A DNA stretch of 63,549 bases, filler included, from Moniliella sp. 'wahieum' (taxonomy: Eukaryota), in the NCBI GenBank assembly GCA_003971905.1. It is 3 parts of 3 records of this genome, joined end to end, with 100 filler letters (N's around TTAATTAATTAA, not from the genome) between each part and the next. Parts side by side here need not be neighbours in the genome. Positions count along the whole stretch, not along the records: positions 43,181 to 63,549 come from RSEE01000189.1; 2 more parts are not named here. The stretch is one strand, 5' to 3'. The position numbers were made by a program, and so were the translations under genes. Positions 50,482 through 63,549 of this stretch are shown piece by piece. Within the stretch, counting starts at the first letter, position 1; each line of letters opens with the position of its first letter. The notes beneath the pieces were generated by a model. It had not been told where the DNA came from and searched no databases. It worked only from the letters and a program-made list of their open reading frames with translations.

Positions 50482-50741
50482 ACAAACCTTAGCTGTGGCG
50501 CAGAGCGCTAGCTGGTCCCCTCTCACGACACGGGGCACCACGCACCGCGCACCGCGCACCCACGTTGCCAATTCTTCTCCCTGTGGACTCTGATTCCCCA
50601 GTTGGCTTTCACAGGGAAAGTAATATATGTAGAGGCCCCCGCAGCCTCGTCTGCGCAAGTTCCCGTTCTCTCTCTCCTTTACTCACGTCCATCGACCAGA
50701 CCAACTCCCAGCACGGTTTCATCTGCGTTTCCCCTCGACCC

Positions 50742-52457
50742 ATGTCCTACCTGGTCCTTCCATCCAATATCCGCCTTCGGGCCAGGCCGCTCCCTCGACT
50801 CCGCACCGGCCTCGGCGTGGCCCCATTCGGATATCGTCTTGTGCGATGGCACGTGGGCGTCGCGGGAGACGGTGTTTACCAAGGTGCACAGGGTGTGGCT
50901 ACATCCAAGACGGCGTCGGCCGACTGGTACACCAATGTGGCCTTGTTGGCGCAATGTATTCTGCCTGCTGCAGATCGGGCAGATGGGAACGGGTACGTGC
51001 GCCCGCAGATCCTGCACTACATGACGGGGTTGGGGTCCATGCCCGATTGAAGCAGAAAATTGTCAGGGCGCCACGGGCCAAGGGATTGACGACAAGGTGT
51101 GTTAGAGGGCATCCGGTTCATTTACGACAATTACCAGCCAGGGGACGAGATCTTGCTCTTTGGCTTCTCCCGCGGTGCGTTTACGGCGCGGTGCATTGCT
51201 GGCGTGATTGACTTGCCGGCGTGCTGACCAAGCCGCAGAGCATCCGTCTCAACGAACTGTGGAAGGCGTACATTGAACGTCGACCAGACCAGCCTTGGAC
51301 GATTGCCAGGGCGTGCTACGTGTTGCATGACATTACGGTCGTTGGCCGAACGGGAGTTCGGTCGGAGTGGCGAGCGTGGCATCGGACCTGGTCCGCGGCA
51401 CGTTTGCCCAACGGGTGTCCCAGTCGCTCAAGCACATCAGTATCCCAGCGTCCGTCTCGTTCGACACGTTGACCCAAGGTGCCAATCCTGCGAATCCTGT
51501 GATGCCTAGTCCTACGGTAGACGTGGTGCCGATCAAGGTGGTAGGGTGTGGGACACGGTCGCTGCTCTTGGGGTGCCCGGGCTGTTCAAGACGTTGGCCA
51601 ATGAGCATATGACTTCCTTTTCGACCCAGGTTGGGTGCCGGGGTGGAGAATGGGTTCCATGCACTATCACTTCACGAGGATCGCAAAGACTTCCTACTAC
51701 CTTGTGGGTACCAACAAAAAAACGCTTCTCGCAACCAGATTCTCAAGCAAACGTGGTTCCAAGGGTGCCACGCTGATGGTGGGCGGAGGCTATTCCCTCC
51801 ATGGCCTGTCGGACATTACCTTAGCTTGGATGGTGGCTCAACTGCACGACCATCCCTCGGGCCCGCTGCTGGGATTGACTTTGACCACCTCCGGTCGCTG
51901 CAGGACAAGCGGTACGCTTGGGCCAAGCAGGCGGGAACGAGAGTCGGATGGCGAATCGAGGAGCAGGCGGTGCGACAAGTGGACAATGAGCGCTGACCAA
52001 GGCCGATCTGGTTGGTGTCGTATGGAGCGATATGCTCCAAGGTGGCAGTAGCGCCCGGCACGAATCGCTTCACTTTTCTGTCGTCGTGGGCGGGGCGTAC
52101 AATCCTGCTACCTCGCCGCAATTTGAGGCGCTGCGCAAGCAGGACCCGAACCGGTTGACGTACCTTTGGCAGCAAGCTAGTAACCCCAATACGCTCCTCC
52201 CGATGAGCGAGCTCTTCGTGGGGCGCCGGAACCGAGAAGCCCGTGCCGCCGACTCTGCAAGATAAGGCCTACGACCATATGATGGAGACGTCCCAAGGCT
52301 TGCAAAAGTGGCGGAGCAGTTTGTCAACAAGTTCCATGTTTCCGACACGCACAACTTACGGCCTGGCACGCTGGGGCAGGGCATCGAGGCCATGCGTTCT
52401 CGCTTGGACCACAGTCCTTTGTCAATGAAGGAGCGTGTTGACAAGGACAGCCGCTAA
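50742..52457 (+). CDS. DUF2235 (Tle1-like) alpha/beta-hydrolase, no intron seen, frameshifted
   Basis: VLCDGTW; TNVALLA; QILHYMTGLGS; NYQPGDEILLFGFSRGAFTARCIAG (GFSRG 51162-51176); VWDTVAALGVP; FHALSLHEDRKDF; LKQTWFQGCHADVGGG; LSDITLAWMV. Confidence 0.92.
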
Positions 52458-52752: not shown

Positions 52753-55700
52753 TCAGGCCGCCGTCTCCACCTCAGAACGTTCCACAAAGCCGAGGGTGGA
52801 ACATAAAGTAGTCCAGGACCTTGTCCAACCGCTGACAAAGTTCCTCCACCTGTGCCCGGCGAGCTTTACGTTTCTCTTCGTACGCAGTCTCGAGAGACGA
52901 GCGACCTCTTCCAGCGCGTCAATCTTAGCCTGAGCCGGGGAGGTGGCCAGCTCATCGTTCGAAGCGGGACCCAAGGGGGTGGGAACAGCGTCCTCCGCTC
53001 CGTTGTGCCGTCTTGCGGTGTGGCAAGGGGCACGATCCCAGCCGCGGCCTCGGCAGCCCAGGGGGCCCTTCACCAGGCGCAAGGGGGGGTACCCCCGCGG
53101 CGGGGAAAAGCTGGCGCGGGTCTTACTCTTTCTACTAGGTGCCGCGGCCACCGCCTCGTTTTCGGCCTTGACAACAGCCCGCTGCCACTTTGCCATCTCC
53201 CGAGTGCGCTTCTCGTCCGCTTCGACAGCATCAAGGCGATACTGGATGTGTTTGATCACCTTGAAGATCCAGTAGGGCCAGTTGACCATCTGCCACCTCG
53301 GTTCCTGTTCCAACACGAACTTCTCTTGGGCCCACACTTGTGCCTCTGGCGACTGGGACGGTGGGTCGGCACGGCCCGCTCCCGCACCCGCTCGTTCATG
53401 GTCTCCTCCGAGGCCTCGTCCGCATGCACTGGTTTCTCGTCCTCATTTTGGGACTCATCCCCAACCTTCTCGGTAGCGTCGGGAGGTGGGTGCGTGTGGT
53501 TGGCATCTTCAGTTTCCATTTCCTCGACGGGGACAGGATCCGTTGAGGCTCGGGGGAACCATCGGGTTGGTTGATCGTGCTCGGGTCCAGCTCGGGGGTG
53601 ACGGTGAGTTCGGCGACAGTGAAGGGTGAGGGAACGGTTTGCCGTAAATGTAGAGTCCCCAGGCCCAACGGCCCTGGGTGTTCTTGGGCATAGATTCGAC
53701 ATACTCGGTCAAGTGCCAATACTCACGACCGTCAACGTCGGTGCCAAGCGGGCCCGAACGCATCTTGGTTCGGTTGAGGTGGTTGTAGAGTTGCACCTTG
53801 CGTTGCAACAGGTTCCAGGCCACGTTGCGTTGCTCGCGTGTTTTCTACAGAGAGGGGCAATACATTAGTTAGCAAAAAAACAGCAACCAAAGGACGCGAT
53901 TGGGGAGGGGGGAAGACGTACCTTGCGTCCCAATTCCTCGATGTACCGTTGGACAGTCTCGTTGTCCAACTTTTCGTTGAGCGCTTGCATGCGTTCCTTG
54001 TGCTCCGTTGATCCGGGTAAGGTCCGCACGAGCGTCCCGCTCCGAAGCGGCGACATTGTTCCACGCCTCCACCAGGTCCGTCCGAACGGCATTGGTACGA
54101 GGCACAAGGGTGTTGACCAACGCGCCTAGAATAGCGACTCGTTGTTCGAAAGGCAGGGCAGGGACAGGAGCCGTCGGAGGTGGGGTGGGCGTCACAACCA
54201 CTTCCACCGCTCCAGCATGCTCGGTTCGACCGAGCCATCCTGGTCGGGTGCGAGCGACGGGCGTGCGCTGCTGGGAAGAGCCGAGGCCTGACGAGAAATG
54301 GACATGGAAGCCGACTGGGCCCGGGAAGTTAGCCCTGATGGCGGTTGTCCCCGGCGAGTGCGGCCAGAGCGCCTCAGCTCCGTTGGCTCGGTCCCCGATG
54401 CACTTTCTTTGCTGATGCGGGGGGTACGACCACGGTGGGTTTGCGCACCAGTTGAGTCGGTCTGATGATCTTCATCGTCTTCACTGGCTTCCGCGGAAGG
54501 GGCACCGTCATAGTCCTTATCGTCAGCGCCATCTTCGTCCATGTCGTCATCGCTGTGGATGGATGCCTCGCGCAAATTCTTGCGAGGAATATCAATGTTG
54601 TTGAGCTTGGCCCGTCCGGCTCGAGTAAGGACGCGTCTGCTTGTTCCCGGAGCCAGGGCAACGTCTGACATTGGCGTAGCTACCTGCTCATCGGGCACTT
54701 CGACAAAGTTGTGCTCAACGTCAGGCAGGTCCTCAATCTCCACCTGCTCTGCCTTGAGCCACTCGCGTGCTGCCTCCCATGCTTCGCCACGCATCGATGC
54801 GTCAGGCGCATTGTGTAGCATCCGGACCGCCCGGACCAAGGGCATAACTCCAGGAAGAGCACCGCTGTAGTTTGGTTTGGCACTGGTCTGAAGCGACTTG
54901 GTCGTCGTACCCGCCAAACAAGCAGCCACTGCCTCGAGAATCTGGTTGAGCATGCGCGGATCCCAGTCATCAAACCTGTCCAGCCGACGAAGAACGAAGC
55001 AGGGGTAGCAACCGCATCAAAACGAACCAAAGCCTCGTAAATCCACATGCGGGCGAACAGATTGGCAGTGGGCAAGGACGAGTCAGCACCCGTCAGGGCT
55101 CCTCCAACTTGGGAGCAACCACAACGGGCTTGGGGCGGATCTTGGGGATGTCCGAGCAGCCGATTTTCTTCCTTTGGCAGGCGTCGTCTTCCCTCCCTTG
55201 GTGGGCGTCGCTTTGGCAGCTTAGTAGGCGTTGCTTTGGCTCCCTTGGTGGGTGTCGCTTTGGTTCCCTTGGTGGGCGTAGCCTTGGTCTTGCCCGTAGC
55301 CTTGGCCTTGGTCGAGGCCTTGGCCTTGGTCTTGGCCGTAGCTTTGGCGGCTGTCTTGCCTTTGGCGGTCGATGACTTGGCTTTGGACGCTGTAGTTTTG
55401 GCCCCCTTGCCAGTGATCGCTTTGGCCTTGGTGGAAGCCTTCTTGGGTGCGGCCTTGGCCTTGGAGGCAGCAGTGGTTTTGACAGACTTGCCCTTGGCCG
55501 GTGGTGAGGACGAGTCAGGCTCCGAGCCAGAGGCGGGCTCCTGGTCTTGCCCATCGACATCCATCAGTTCTGCACCGTTGCTGTCGTCTTGCACATCAGC
55601 TTCGTCCTGGGCTTTAAACGAGGCTTGGGCTTGCCATTGGGGAGGAACTTGAGCGCCAGGGCCTCATCGTCCGAGCTGTCTGGAGATTGCGGGGTCTGAG

Positions 55701-56622
55701 CCTTGACCTTGGCGGATTTGGTTTGTTGGTGGATTTGGCAGCACCCTTTGTAGGTTTAGTCGTATCCTTGGGCTTGGCTTTTCCTTTCCCTTTGGCGTTG
55801 GCATTGGCATTGGCATTGGCCTTGGTCTTGGCCTTGGTCTTGGCCTTGGCCTTGCCTGTGCTGGCAGGAGCATCCGAAAGACTTTCGTCCGCCTCATCGA
55901 GGGAAGTATGGGGGCGCTCATCGGCTCTAGCATGGGAAAGACGATCGTGGCCTTCCTCCGTGTGAGCCAAAGGAGTCAGACCCCGACGGTGGCGACAGAC
56001 GGAGCAATCGCACGTGCCCACGCACCGAGGGCAAGCGAACAAGTAGCCCGCCTCGGACGCGGGGCACATCTGGCTCGGGTCCAGACCAAGTTGGACTTTG
56101 TTGGGGTCGCCCGCGGTGGGGTCCCGGCCGCGGGCAAGGATATCATCGCGTGAGAGGCCGTAGTAGACCTTGAGGGGAGTAGTCGCAATAGCGCAAGCGG
56201 CAACGCTGGTGATTGTCGCGCATGTTGGTGCACTGCAGCATGGGGCGAGGGCAGAAACGGCGGTGCTGGTGGCAGGGGCCGAGGTGGCCGGTTGAGCATC
56301 GGGACTCATTTGTCCCTCAACCGGCTCGGCGTCCCCAAGCAGAAGGGGGCTGGCAGCCATGGCCTGGGCCTGTTGCGTGCGGCCGCGACCGTACGCGGCT
56401 CTACCTTTGGCGATCGAGACACGGCCGCTCGGGCGGGCAACCGCATCGGCGGACGAGTCGGCGTCGAGCGACTGGTCGGGCTGGGCGTGGGACTGGATTT
56501 GGTTTTCTTGTTGGCGACGGCGAGCGAGGGCGAACGGGCGGATGTGCTCTTGCGTTTGGACGCGGGTGCGGACGGGGGCGTGTCCCCTGGGGGGGGAGGT
56601 GGGGATCGTCGTCGGTGTGCAT
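52753..56622 (-). CDS. Chromatin protein: variant zf-4CXXC_R1 (CDCA7-like) finger + Lys/Ala-rich H1-tail-like region + DDT-like/WHIM1/WSD modules, frameshifted
   Basis: CHQHRR..CTN..CRLRYC..L..YYG...FACPRCVGTCDCSVCRHRRGL (56274-55975); KAK/TPTK repeats; RMWIYEALVRF; LPFEQRVAILGALVN (WHIM1-like); RSGPLGTDVDGREYW (WSD); intron 53921-53845; start 56622 inferred. Confidence 0.75.
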
Positions 56623-58350: not shown

Positions 58351-61300
58351 CTAGCTCCGCGCCAACGCAACGATCAAGTCCCATTCCGCCAAACAAGCGA
58401 CGAACCTGGACCACACGCCGGATCTCGCGTGGGGGTGACGGCGACGCGCTGGGGCGTGCAGCGGGTCCGCGGGGTGCCATTGCGCCTGGCTCACGTCCTG
58501 GCCGGTCCTGCGCAGGGTCCTGCGCCATGTGCGAGAGGGTCTGGGTCGGTATCCGGGTCGTGGCCGAGCACTTTGCGCAGTTTCAGCTACAAAAGTCGTG
58601 TGTCAGCACGTCCCTCCTCTCGTCCGGGGTCAGTGTACGGCGGAGTTCCCATGCGCGAGCGGGTTCTGTGCCCGATCCCGAGCCGGGGTGGTTGGGGTCG
58701 GCGAGAACCGGTGGGGAAGACGAGGAAATCAGCGGGGGTCTGGAGGGAGCGGAGGAAAGATCCCATCAGGAAGAAGATCAAGGCGACGAGGATGACGGTG
58801 GAGAGGGGGGGTACTTGGCGTTGGCACAGTGCGCGGAACGGGTTGGGCGTCGAGGTCCCAAGCTAGATGCTGTGGTGGTGTGCGGCTGCGGCGGGTGGTA
58901 GAGTGCAGAGCGTCGCCACGAGGCGAGGTGGTAGAGTCGGAGATATCTGTCCCAAGCGCGACAGGGGCGAGTTGGCTAACAAACTAATGATGGGCGAAGC
59001 GCTTGAGCTCGGGGGGCCTAAGGACGCCGCAGTAACCCTTGGGATTCCTGCGCGCCTAGTGTGTGGGATCCTCCGTCGCGCACATGGGTAGCCTCCGTGG
59101 GTCCCTGCACCTCGTCGTCCTCAGGACTGGCTTCCTTGTTGGTCGTCTTGCCGTGCGCCTTGGGGTCGGACTTGGCCTGGGCGCGCACAGGTTTCGGGAC
59201 AAGATGCGGTTCATGTGCGCAGCAAGCGGGGTATGGTACAAGGCGGGGACATACGAGTGTTCCTCGGGATCAGCCAGTGTGTCCGAAACCTCGTTGAGCC
59301 TAGAGGCGGGTTAGTTCCTTGCCACACACATATAAGCGAAGGGGGGTCCAGGGGGGGGAGAGGGGGGGGATATGACGTACTTGCATAGGACGGGGACGGG
59401 GTCCGCATCTGGACTCTCGCGCTGGAGCAGAGCCGAAGTTTTGTTGACATGAATCACGTCCATGGGGCCATTGTTGAACCAGACCAACGACGGCAGTTTG
59501 GTCGCTTTGGCCGTCCATTTTCCGTGGCGGCAGTACCGGTTCCTCGTCCGAATCCTCATCTTGTTGCGCAAACGTTGCTGTATCCCCCGCCGGTGGATAC
59601 GGGGCACAATGGTGCACGTGAGCAGTGCATCGGTCCAGCTCTGGTCGGGGAAAGGGTAACGCCGCATCGTCCAATGGGGCCAGGTAGAGCCGCACCAGGT
59701 GCCGGCGAGGCCGGTGCTGGGAATCGAGCGTGGCAGCAAGCAAGCCGAAGGCGGCAAGTCGTACACCGCAGCCTCGAGCGGGACCGGGTCCGAATGAGGA
59801 GGATCGGCATCCAAGTTGAGCAAGCTAGGCGCGTCGCTATCGGGCTGGTGTCTCCCCCGCCGAGCCCGAGCCCAAGCCCAAGCCCGATTCGGCCGCGGCG
59901 TCGTCCCGCCCGCCGTGTTCTCGTCGCTCTCCCCCGCTGTGGACTGGTCAGGGGATCGGTGATCGTCGCGTCGGCATCGGACAGCGAATGGGTCAAACTG
60001 GTGGAACGCAAGAGGGAGGCCTTGACCTCGGCCCCGGTCTGAGAAGGCAAAGTAGGAGACGGATGGCGAGGCGCGGGCACGCGTACCGCCTCGGCGGTGA
60101 TGGTGTACCCCCTAGGAAAGTGGCCTAGCTCCACGGTCACTTCCAGCACGATGTCTTCCCTTGGACGGTTGGGGCCATCGCGTTTGGACAAGCTGACCGC
60201 CCTGCGTGCCTCGCCAATCGCATTGGATAAGGACAGAGGGGACGTAGGGTCGGCAGCACTGTTGGATGTGGTGCGGGACCGAGACCAAGGGAGCGAGGAG
60301 CGGCAGGTCGCTGGCCGAGGACGGGAAGCCCGTGGGGGAGGCAAGGCGGGACTAGCCTGTTGGGATGATGGCGCGTCGGGGTCGTCGGTGAACGCACTAA
60401 AGCTAAGTGTGCGTCGGTCGGTCGCTTCGGGCGGTGGGGCGGCGCAGTTCGCGCATGGTAGAAAAGTGCGCGGAATCATGGTGCGTGGACCTGGACGCGG
60501 ACCCGGACCCGGCGGGCGCGGTGGCAGCGGCGGCGACGGAGGCCGAAGCACCCAGACGAATGAGCGCGCGAGCTTCAAACTTTTTAGTGCGTGGATCAAA
60601 GTCTTGCGACAAAAGTGTCCTGTTCTCGGCACCCTTGGGCAGGGTGAGCGCCCAGGGCAGATCCGGATCTTCGTCCCGTCCGTCCCCAAGGACCACGACA
60701 CTGGACGGCGGCAGCGTGACTGCCGGCCCGATCCCGGAACTAGGCGCTGGGCCCTTGAGGTAGGCTTCGATTTGGTTGATGGTCTTGGGCAGTGCTGCGT
60801 TCCAGGAGGTGTTGACGGAGGAAGGGACCGACGCCAAAGTCGATGGCCATGACGTGGGTGAGGCGGGTAGAAGGGATAGCATAGGCTGTGGAAGTATAAG
60901 GATCAACCGTTTCCAAGATCCAACCGTCAATCAGAACCCGCCCGACGGGCAGGTTGGCCGGGTTAAGTTTCCCGCCAAACACATAATCTGGCGAACCATC
61001 TTCCTTCTTGCTCGACGGGAGGGACAAGCCGACGCACGTGCAATGCTCTCCCACGAACAAGACGCCGCGGCATAAAAGTACGCGATGGGCTTGCCCGGGT
61101 TGGCGGCCGCGATCGGCTGTGCCCAGGCCTGCGTCGGGCGGAATGGGATCGAGCGCGGGCTGATCGGCATAGCGATGGGTCGAGGCCTGCGCGCGCGCCA
61201 AGTGGTTCGCCTGGGTCGGGGAGGCAGTGCGGGCCGTCAAGTGGGCAACGCAAAAGGCGCGGCCACGAAAGGGGAAGGAAGGTTTGGTCGTGGCAAAGTA

Positions 61301-63549
61301 CACTCCTGCGCCGTTACCATAACTCTGTAGCGGTAATGCAGCGTCCGCGCTCGTCCAAGCCTTTGCGCACCGCCAGCGACTCGACCGCCTGAAGAAGTTC
61401 TTCGGCCGCCAACCTTGCACCACCTTGTCGGCACGTTGAATCGCGACGCTAGGCGAGATGGATTGCATGTACTTTCGTCGGATGTGAAGCCCGTTGCGTT
61501 CCGACACGAGTGCCCAGCCGGCCGGGGTAACCGAGGGGTCGGAGAGCGCTCGGCGTACAGCCGCCGCAGCAAAAACAGTACATCCAATGGGCCCGTCAGA
61601 CTATCCCGCACCGCATTCCGCGGCGGAGGCAGGCGTACGGACGCGCGCAGACTGTCAGCGGTGCTGGCCGCTTCCGCTGTCAAATCAGATTGTCCGGCAC
61701 GACAGGCGTGGTGGAGCGAGAGAGGTTGACGGGGGTGCCGCCGAGCGTGGAGACATTGTCCAGCGCAGGGGAAGTGCGTGTGCCACTGCGGGCGCCTTTG
61801 AACGCAGGCGAGGTCAGGTCGAGGGGTACATGTTTTGGTCGAGAGCGTTTGCGACGGAAAAGTTCCTTGACTTGATCGTCCTCCAGCTCGTCAATGACAT
61901 GAATGTTGGCGCCGTTGACCATGACTACGCCCCGTTCTTTACCATTCCCCCATGCCGGGCCACGACGAACCGTGATCCTCGCCGTGTCATCCTCCAGCGA
62001 CGCAGGTACATGTTCAATCGTGATCCACAATCCGCCTCCGCCTTGACTGAGTTGTGGCGACGCAAGCAACTGATCTCAATGGTGGTGGGTCAATCACAAG
62101 ATCCAAGTTGGGACTCCAAGACTCGAGGTCGCATCGCAACTCGCACTCGACGTTGGGCGTGTCGTCGGGTAACAAGCCGGGGGCGAGCTCGTACTCGAAT
62201 CGGAACGTGGCCCGCTCATGCTCGTACTGGATCTTCTTCACCTGTCCCCCCAACAGACGCGTGACAACGGGCGGCGCACCAAACTTGATCGCATACTCGC
62301 CGCGCCCGCTACAGCAGCCGTCATGGCGTTGGGAGTGGAGGACTTGGACGTCCAGCCCTTGGGATCGCTCTGCTCCAACAGCGTCACATGCACCGTCGTT
62401 GGCTCAGCGACTCAACGGACCAGCCACGAAGGTCGACTTGGGTCCGGATCACGCCCGACTCGGGCGCGGGGATCTGCGGGAACAAGCCACGGTCGTCGGT
62501 GCTAAAGCTAAAAATGTGAACCGAGGCGGGGACTTGTACGATGTGCTCACCGTCACGGAATCGCGGGCGCTGCCGATGCGTAGATATACACGTTAGTTGT
62601 CACTTCACAAGTGGGAAGGAAGAGATGGGGTGAGGGAGGGGGGGGGGCGCACCTGACGGGCCATGACGCTTTATTCTTCGAGTGCCACAATGAGCTGAGG
62701 TCGTTAAGGTCAGCCAAGAGGGTAGAGCTTTCGTGGGTCTTGTCCCACAAGGCTTGTGCTCCTGGGCTCGAGATGGTGGCGAACAAGTCCCAGACGCCTA
62801 CGCCTACAAACGTCGCTTCCGCCCGGTAGACAATCAAGGTGGGATCGATCGAGTCGAGTTGGGGATGGTCACCCCCGCGAGTCCGACACGTGTTTCCACT
62901 TAGCGTCTGGCTCTTGGAGCAGAGAGGTAAAGTAGATATAGTTCGTCGGATCAGCGCGTCGACGGCGTTGGAGTTGGATCCATTCGGTTGTCCTGCCAGC
63001 GCAGCGCCGGTACGTTCTTACCCACCGCACTGCCCTCAAACGACAAGGCTTGCAACTTATCTGCCTCGTCCAAGATCCAACCGAACGCCTCGCCCGGGTC
63101 GCGCAAGCTGCCACCCCTGTGGATGCGCATGGGCCAGCAGTCAGCTGCGACCGAGGGAACGGGACTACACACGACCGACAGCGGCATCTGGGTGCCCTTG
63201 GCCCAGCGTTCGCTGTTGACTGATCGGCCACTGCGGATGGAGTCGGCACTGCTCGCTTCGGTGCGTGGGTCCGAGACCGACAGGGGGGGGCGTTGAGAGG
63301 ATTGACGGGCCAGACGGGGATCAAGTCCCCGTTGAGCCGGATATCGTCGAGGCGGCAATACGCTGGATCTGCACACTGACCCTTGTCACCTCCTCTTGCA
63401 GCACAAGCGGTCATGGAGAATGGTGACTTCGATCCCGGCTGCATTGTGTGGGGAACGGCGTGCGGACAAGACGCCATTGCGGGTACCGCGAGGGTTCGCC
63501 GCATGTCCGCCCGACTCCCCCGGCAACTGAGTGGATACGCGCATGGCCT
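58351..63549 (-). CDS. Large multi-START (SRPBCC) domain lipid-binding protein with C-terminal membrane segment; 5' end lies beyond the window; frameshifted
   Basis: WKHVSDSRGV..LIVYRAEATFVGVGVWDLF..WDK..LWH..WPV|SARDSV..HIFSFS..IRTQVDLRGW..LLEQSDPKGW; further START-like unit (LVSERNGLHIRRK..QRADKVV..RVLIDGWILETVDPY); introns 62652-62570 and 59380-59300; hydrophobic VILVALIFFLMGSFLRS; stop at 58351-58353. Confidence 0.82.

What the first reader, a model, noticed from the sequence alone, without database searches (positions are those of the whole stretch)
55975..56280. Rewired CDCA7-type zinc finger on an ISWI-type DDT/WHIM/WSD scaffold
Seen: GPCHQHRRFCPRPMLQCTNMRDNHQRCRLRYCDYSLKVYYG-(long insert)-FACPRCVGTCDCSVCRHRRGL, in the same gene as DDT-like, WHIM1 and WSD segments. 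Known: the CDCA7 zf-4CXXC_R1 finger binds hemimethylated CpG and activates HELLS; ICF residues are R274, G294, R304; DDT-WHIM-WSD proteins partner ISWI ATPases. By my manual alignment R274 is kept but C273>H, Q275>R, G294>L, R304>Y and CNC>CDC differ, with an extra Cys in RRFC (C300>S sits at an indel and is uncertain). Inference: a reader with changed Zn ligation and DNA specificity, targeting a remodeller to something other than hemi-5mC.
Basis: partly seen in the sequence, partly recalled or inferred. Interest (0 to 1): 0.7.

Follow-up and report, generated by a model that had tools for sequence, protein, structure and literature searches.

The report
Smut-fungus ISWI subunit, rebuilt zinc finger
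This fungal gene encodes a likely helper subunit of a nucleosome-spacing machine; its CDCA7-type zinc finger, which in animals reads half-methylated DNA, appears to have a rebuilt zinc site shared across smut fungi and their relatives and has probably stopped reading methylation.

Summary
A second copy in the same genome has the finger in one open frame, above the PF10497 cut-off. Two diverged copies and two relatives show the same kinds of change. Finger, DDT-like, WHIM1 and WSD parts are one gene. The changes are not peculiar to this organism: 21 of 21 scored fingers of one clade (named members all Ustilaginomycotina) have His at C273, a new Cys just after it, and no C300 or R304; 10 of 10 other fingers keep the canonical set. 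C273 and C300 are both ligands of zinc site 1, so the new Cys probably replaces C300 (inferred, one evolutionary event). The scaffold resembles an ISW1a subunit (Z 9.8) and is predicted to bind ISWI SLIDE (0.73, best control 0.04). The architecture is known (plant DDR1-3, sponge), and the Ustilago maydis orthologue already sits, uncommented, in a published alignment. Base-reading positions 274/275 vary across the clade and no cytosine methyltransferase was found here or in U. maydis, so a methylation-blind anchor is likelier than a reader of a new mark. New variant of a known kind.

The parts
52753..56622 (-). Whole gene, about 1,150 codons, two exons; many single-base assembly slips
   Evidence: ATG at 56622 and TGA at 52755-52753; collinear tblastn to P0004 and P0018; 59 indels against the C136 copy, 50 not multiples of three. 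The start codon is inferred from relatives.
55977..56274 (-). zf-4CXXC_R1 (CDCA7-type) finger with variant zinc site 1 and an insert of about 25 residues
   Evidence: PF10497 27.9 bits on the intact copy; AlphaFold2 pLDDT 90.7; top five Foldseek rows all CDCA7, Z 7.7 to 8yv8_K
56251..56274 (-). First knuckle: C270, H271, H273 (was Cys), R274, R275 (was Gln), new Cys at 277
   Evidence: Codons read directly; same in all four copies
56163..56187 (-). C297, position 300 (Ser or Ala, was Cys), position 304 (Tyr, was Arg); holds the one-base slip at about 56177
55170..55900 (-). Lys/Ala/Thr-rich low-complexity linker
   Evidence: Seen directly; the matching region of P0015 has pLDDT under 50
54730..55075 (-). 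DDT-like helical domain
   Evidence: No Pfam DDT match; start of the ISW1a-chain match; shared with a canonical-finger relative (hhalign probability 99.7); forms part of the predicted SLIDE pocket
54079..54168 (-). WHIM1 motif, followed by a coiled coil that crosses the intron
   Evidence: PF15612 E 0.0094, below cut-off; predicted SLIDE contacts
53845..53921 (-). Phase-0 intron, 77 bases, GT...AG with branch-site motif
   Evidence: Seen directly; relatives' ORFs P0004 and P0005 end at the same place
53640..53763 (-). WSD/WHIM2 motif and following strands
   Evidence: PF15613 E 0.029, below cut-off; tblastn to P0018; predicted SLIDE contacts
52796..53328 (-). C-terminal conserved strand and helices
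   Evidence: tblastn to P0018 residues 1037-1120; the ISW1a-chain match runs to the model's C-terminus

Best explanation
The gene is the Ustilaginomycotina member of a fungal family of ISWI accessory subunits built like plant DDR1-3: an N-terminal zf-4CXXC_R1 finger on a DDT-like/WHIM1/WSD body. The body cups the SLIDE domain of ISWI (predicted). The finger keeps the CDCA7 fold (predicted) and the ligands of zinc sites 2 and 3 (seen). Site 1 was rebuilt once in the clade's ancestor, from C270/C273/C297/C300 to, most likely, C270/H273/new Cys/C297 (inferred; geometry not measured). R304 and its buttress N328 were released and Q275 drifts, while S330 and R333 stay. The finger therefore most likely grips DNA or nucleosomes through the backbone without telling methylated from unmethylated CpG, and so helps hold the remodeller on chromatin in a lineage that seems to have lost 5mC enzymes (inferred).
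For: Zinc-site assignment and DNA contacts from the crystal and cryo-EM papers. Split 21 against 10 with no mixed row among 31 scored fingers. Variant proteins form one branch, SH-aLRT 100, 19 of 24 rows. All 11 variant cluster representatives that carried a name are Ustilaginomycotina genera (the placement of the genera is recalled). dN 0.07-0.08 against dS above 2 between the genome's diverged copies. Scaffold matches ISW1a chains 7x3t_U (Z 9.8, 292 aligned, rmsd 12.6) and 2y9z_B (Z 9.3, 275 aligned, rmsd 8.5) over model residues 263-782. The six Atlas rows shown are all WSD/WHIM1/DDT clusters (0.77-0.82). Complex model 0.73, best of 3 controls 0.04; runs agree in at least 71% of contacts, partner pLDDT 81; mark reached by 51 of 78 solved and 2 of 108 mismatched pairs. 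ISWI genes present. PF00145 and SRA give no candidate in this genome; U. maydis is listed without any DNMT or UHRF1. S330 kept in 19 of 21, R333 in 20 of 21.
Against: No binding data of any kind. R274 stays in 14 of 21 variant fingers, and this organism has Arg at both 274 and 275, so base reading is not excluded. The covariation is a single event, not repeated evidence, and the 21 rows include near-duplicates. An insert His or Cys is another candidate ligand. Pfam DDT is not matched; the fold match has high rmsd and Foldseek E about 1. A like complex (ISW1a) is solved, so the pass may come from memory; both chains were stand-ins from relatives and the alignments were not used. The family search missed PF10497 even in the intact copy, so blanks in this assembly are weak. 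One old HPLC value gives 2.26% 5mC for U. maydis. Canonical fungal relatives already vary at 274/275 (Arg 8 of 10, Gln 5 of 10), so the loosening predates the swap in part.
Confidence: 0.6

Rival explanations
1. The rebuilt site 1 re-aims the reading loop at a new specific target (unmethylated CpG or another short sequence, a non-B DNA shape, or a histone surface), so the finger steers ISWI to chosen loci.
For: Site 1 positions the base-reading loop. The finger is kept under strong purifying selection. H273 and the new Cys are fixed in 21 of 21; position 304 is hydrophobic or aromatic in 17 of 21; R274 is kept in 14 of 21. Mouse CDCA7 also binds unmethylated non-B DNA.
Against: No fixed new residue at 274, 275 or 304 across the clade. 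No hint of a new DNA mark: the one MT-A70 family inspected looks like the RNA enzyme METTL3 by recalled motif.
Confidence: 0.22
2. The finger no longer touches DNA and serves as a protein-binding or purely structural module of the ISWI complex.
For: In CDCA7 the single change R304H abolishes the preference for hemimethylated DNA and ICF changes abolish binding. The clade has a conserved insert that CDCA7 lacks.
Against: S330 and R333, backbone contacts in CDCA7, are kept in 19 and 20 of 21, and the surface stays basic.
Confidence: 0.12
3. It still works like CDCA7: it reads hemimethylated CpG and activates HELLS.
For: A HELLS/DDM1-like gene is present (best PDB matches DDM1); R274 is kept; the fold is CDCA7's.
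Against: G294, R304 and Q275 are changed; no DNMT or SRA match; CpG is not depleted in the window (observed/expected 0.93); the body is ISWI-type; the N-terminus of P0015 is modelled without a helix, whereas CDCA7 needs a helix at 108-143 to bind HELLS.
Confidence: 0.04
4. The changes are sequencing errors or decay of a pseudogene.
For: The window copy has about 50 frame-breaking differences from its sister copy.
Against: The slips differ between copies; the finger is open in C136; relatives have open frames with the same changes; dN/dS is about 0.03.
Confidence: 0.02

Closest known systems
Plant DDR1-3 and sponge XP_019849176 (class II zf-4CXXC_R1 + DDT + WHIM1; Funabiki et al. 2023, PMC10538959)
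   Same: Finger with G294 substituted on a DDT/WHIM1 body; Arabidopsis DDR1 and DDR3 are reported ISWI partners.
   Different: Class II keeps eleven cysteines; this clade lost two site-1 cysteines, gained one, and lost R304.
Fungal 'Other zf-4CXXC_R1' proteins of the same paper (U. maydis XP_011388187, Saitoella GAO50750, Coprinopsis XP_001830053, Kwoniella XP_019003122)
   Same: This is the family: GAO50750 is in the cluster of hit P0027, and the U. maydis row of the published alignment shows the His-His-x3-Cys knuckle.
   Different: The sections read do not mention the ligand change or a DDT/WHIM/WSD body for these proteins; non-smut members keep the canonical finger.
CDCA7 (class I; PDB 8yv8, 8tle)
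   Same: Fold and nine of eleven cysteines plus H271; R274, S330, R333 kept here.
   Different: C273, Q275, G294, C300, R304, N328 changed; 25-residue insert; partner predicted to be ISWI, not HELLS.
Yeast Ioc3 (ISW1a) and ACF1/WSTF-type DDT-WHIM subunits
   Same: Helical body matches the non-ATPase ISW1a chain along its length (that chain being Ioc3 is recalled, names chain V of 7x3t as ISW1); DDT, WHIM1 and WHIM2 form the SLIDE pocket as reviewed in PMC8536118.
   Different: 12-13% identity; no WAC, PHD or bromodomain; has the zinc finger.
CDCA7F (fungal class II without other domains)
   Same: Same finger family in fungi, G294 substituted.
   Different: A separate paralogue without the scaffold; U. 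maydis has none listed and a canonical-finger query found only this gene's four copies here.

Membership tests
zf-4CXXC_R1 (PF10497) | Score above the curated cut-off | tested here: met
   27.9 bits against 22.7 for the intact copy; the window's own half-finger frame gives 21.7
zf-4CXXC_R1 (PF10497) | CDCA7 three-zinc cross-brace fold | tested here: met
   Model pLDDT 90.7; top five Foldseek rows are CDCA7 (best E 0.0024), Z 7.7, rmsd 5.5, 81 aligned; zinc occupancy itself not testable
CDCA7 / class I | Eleven cysteines and R274, G294, R304 kept | tested here: not met
   C273, C300, G294, R304 changed in all copies
CDCA7 / class I | HELLS-binding helix N-terminal to the finger | tested here: inconclusive
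   No helix in the disordered N-terminus of the P0015 model; window protein not modelled there
CDCA7 / class I | Binds hemimethylated CpG | not testable with these tools
   Needs binding assays
Class II / DDR1-3 type | G294 substituted | tested here: met
   Leu here; not Gly in 16 of 21 variant fingers, Gly in 5
Class II / DDR1-3 type | Eleven cysteines kept | tested here: not met
   C273 and C300 absent in 21 of 21
Class II / DDR1-3 type | DDT domain | tested here: inconclusive
   No PF02791 match; supported by fold match, Atlas neighbours and predicted SLIDE contacts
Class II / DDR1-3 type | Common descent with plant DDR1-3 | not tested
   Published tree places the groups near each other with weak support
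DDT-WHIM-WSD ISWI subunits | WHIM1 and WSD motifs in order after DDT | tested here: inconclusive
   Both found in the expected order but below cut-off, E 0.0094 and 0.029; 2 of 25 members each
DDT-WHIM-WSD ISWI subunits | Ioc3-like helical body | tested here: met
   Z 9.8 and 9.3 over 275-292 residues, the only listed rows aligning more than about 100 residues; rmsd high
DDT-WHIM-WSD ISWI subunits | Binds the SLIDE domain of ISWI | tested here: inconclusive
   Model supports it, 0.73 against 0.04, but a like complex is solved and stand-ins were used; no experiment
CDCA7F | No further domain beyond the finger | tested here: not met
   Carries the helical scaffold

The most novel reading that the evidence does not exclude
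After the smut lineage lost cytosine methylation, the finger's zinc site 1 was rebuilt so that it now reads a different, specific chromatin feature and steers an ISWI remodeller to it: a methylation reader turned to a new target, conserved across a subphylum and testable in a genetic model fungus.
Probability: 0.22. Interest if true: 0.72.

Novelty: new variant of a known kind. Interest (0 to 1): 0.43.

Why it matters
What non-CDCA7 variants of this finger recognise is an open question: the 2023 survey says only that they probably see other genome features. This clade is a natural experiment: the finger is strongly conserved where the methylation enzymes seem gone, while relatives with methylation keep the canonical finger on the same body. 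It also assigns a likely role, ISWI subunit, to a fungal family filed as 'other', and offers a clade-wide case of a zinc ligand moving within a fold. The gain is moderate: architecture and general idea are in print, and loss of specificity is likelier than a new one.

Tried and rejected
PF10497 over the own genome found nothing although the gene is there, and PF12047 rang nowhere: both uninformative. A single-sequence search of solved structures missed CDCA7; the profile found it but found no Ioc3 or ACF1 chain by sequence. Word-based homologue searches were shallow: 2 of 111 candidates, 7 of 8000, 2 of 178, so the clade's limits (Malassezia, Tilletia, rust fungi and relatives) are not settled. 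No sequencing run was listed, which says nothing on expression. Earlier findings of the scan: none, three look-ups. Atlas search with the finger gave leads under 0.9 only. Short coiled-coil matches of the full model (Z 8-9.4, about 75-90 residues) were set aside as common helical hairpins. The 21-against-10 split was not treated as a statistical test, because it is one branch (quick tree, careful search unfinished). Seven of 38 rows lacked part of the finger and were left out of that count. Filing it as CDCA7 or CDCA7F was rejected (membership table). The second MT-A70 family (C40, C7) was not inspected.

Full report
Observation. The motifs are on the minus strand at 56274-55977, broken by one extra base in a C run near 56177. 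The assembly is noisy: 59 indels separate the window's gene from its sister copy, 50 of them frame-breaking. The genome holds four copies at 100, 95, 73 and 72% identity. The 95% copy has the finger in one frame, identical to the window's in 93 of 94 codons, and passes PF10497 (27.9 bits, cut-off 22.7). A family profile finds CDCA7 in the PDB (E 1.6e-11) and gives the numbering. Position 300 is Ser in one pair of copies and Ala in the other, so the loss of this Cys is no artefact of the slip. Between the diverged copies the finger has dN 0.07-0.08 and dS above 2 (dS is near saturation, so the ratio of about 0.03 is rough).

One gene. It runs from about 56622 to 52753 with one intron at 53921-53845. 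The two closest relatives (75% and 69% identity over the finger) carry finger, DDT-like and WHIM1 parts in one open frame that stops at this intron; full-length relatives add the WSD part and map in order along the window.

The family. A search of 1.84 billion representatives returned 31 proteins. With five added later and the intact copy, 38 rows were examined and 31 could be scored (P0044 and six others lacked part of the finger). They split without exception: 21 have His at 273, a new Cys four to six residues later, no Cys at 300 and no Arg at 304; 10 have Cys273, no new Cys, Cys300, Arg304 and Asn328. The 21 include near-duplicates; 2 of the 10 are scaffold-less paralogues and 3 are fragments. 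Of 20 clusters looked up, 13 had a named representative: 10 variant ones (Sympodiomycopsis, Parajaminaea, Jaminaea, Pseudozyma, Sporisorium, Tilletiaria, Meira, Violaceomyces, Exobasidium, Acaromyces) and 3 canonical (Suillus, Sphaerobolus, Saitoella); Ustilago came later. That these variant genera are Ustilaginomycotina is recalled. Variant proteins form one branch (SH-aLRT 100, quick tree), so this is one event. Canonical-finger relatives share the body (hhalign probability 99.7).

The zinc site. In mouse CDCA7 zinc site 1 is bound by two CXXC pairs that correspond to human C270/C273 and C297/C300; the residues next to this site read the CpG, and Asn339 (human 328) props Arg315 (human 304) on the backbone (PMC11343032, passages). 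R274 reads the methyl group, Q275 excludes full methylation, R304 and S330 hold the backbone (PMC11343034, passages). The two cysteines lost here are both site-1 ligands, and a new Cys is present in every variant finger; the simplest reading is a site made of C270, H273, the new Cys and C297. This is inference: the model is confident (pLDDT 90.7) and matches CDCA7 best, but I could not read its coordinates, and the insert holds a His or Cys that could also serve. R304 and N328 are released together. Position 275 shows seven residues, 274 four (Arg 14 of 21), 304 eight; S330 and R333 stay (19 and 20 of 21). No new residue is fixed at the reading positions, which favours lost discrimination over a new code.

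The body. Pfam is weak: WHIM1 and WSD below cut-off, DDT absent. The model of relative P0015 matches the non-ATPase chain of ISW1a over residues 263-782 (Z 9.8 and 9.3, rmsd 12.6 and 8.5); Foldseek ranks these chains right after CDCA7 with E about 1. The Atlas rows shown for the body of P0018 are all WSD, WHIM1 or DDT clusters, at lead level. A complex model of the Tilletiaria body with SANT-SLIDE of an ISWI 91% identical over SLIDE to one of this genome's scored 0.73, best of 3 controls 0.04; runs agree in at least 71% of contacts, partner pLDDT 81; the mark was reached by 51 of 78 solved and 2 of 108 mismatched pairs. The contacts fall on the DDT-like helix, WHIM1 and the WSD motif against SLIDE, the pocket described in a review (PMC8536118, passages). 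A like complex is solved, so this shows likeness, not binding.

The genome. ISWI is present in about three paralogues and a HELLS/DDM1-like gene too. PF00145 and SRA gave no candidate, while SNF2 gave 103 matches and MT-A70 eight; but the finger family itself was missed, so absence is only likely. CpG is not depleted (0.93). A canonical-finger query finds only this gene's copies. U. maydis is listed with no DNMT and no UHRF1 but with HELLS; two reviews agree on the missing enzymes, and one cites an old HPLC value of 2.26% 5mC (PMC7862722 and PMC13297926, passages). Other members of the clade were not checked.

What is known. Funabiki et al. 2023 (PMC10538959; outline, passages, sections 7, 8 and 13, supplementary file 1 parts 1-2 and searches) define class II fingers by the G294 change, describe finger + DDT + WHIM1 in plant DDR1-3 and a sponge, cite DDR1 and DDR3 as ISWI partners, and suggest that diverged fingers see other genome features. 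Their alignment holds the U. maydis orthologue with the variant knuckle, under 'Other zf-4CXXC_R1'. In the text I read neither the ligand change nor an ISWI-type body for these fungal proteins is mentioned; their Figure 4B draws fungal domain architectures and I could not see it. Searches listed no paper on this clade's finger or on a smut ISWI subunit of this kind; subscription journals are mostly missing, and Aravind and Iyer 2012, Dong 2013 and Tan 2020 were not read (cited through). PMC11417364 (passages) gave the HELLS-binding helix and the R304H result; PMC10396365 (passages) the plant ISWI complexes; PMC12711577 held none of the terms sought.

Verdict. A real gene and a real, clade-wide variant of a known kind. 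It works like a DDR/Ioc3-type ISWI subunit (about 0.85); it is not CDCA7 or CDCA7F and fails the strict class II cysteine test. The finger is most likely a methylation-blind chromatin anchor (0.6), less likely a reader of a new target (0.22). Interest 0.43.

Noticed in passing
G000 contigs C189, C136, C15, C26: The gene occurs as two near-identical pairs that differ from each other by about 27% of bases, and other genes also come in several copies: the assembly looks like a hybrid of two diverged genomes with both haplotypes kept.
   Followed up: partly
G000:C38/C9, C128/C116, C65/C17 (L013, L014, L020, L024, L026): About three ISWI paralogues with SLIDE domains, clearly diverged from each other (36% identity between two SLIDE regions by way of P0047); several Snf2/Sth1-like copies as well (L017-L019).
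   Followed up: partly
G000:C49 and C30 (L048, L057): HELLS/DDM1-like ATPase kept although no cytosine methyltransferase was found, as listed for U. maydis.
   Followed up: partly
window 50600-52450 (+): Neighbouring gene in pieces with a Tle1-like catalytic domain (PF09994, E 5.6e-9); also lies beside the gene in the other copies.
   Followed up: partly
window 60400-63500 (-): Frameshifted frames that look like a lipid-binding START-type protein by recall only; Pfam gave no match on the pieces scanned.
   Followed up: partly
G000:C5:276774 and C124:42940 (L075, L076): WAC-domain genes, likely a second ISWI subunit of the ACF1/Itc1 kind.
   Followed up: no
window 56090-56045 (-), finger insert: The insert has a His conserved in most relatives, canonical ones too, but replaced here and in P0004, where a neighbouring Cys remains.
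   Followed up: no
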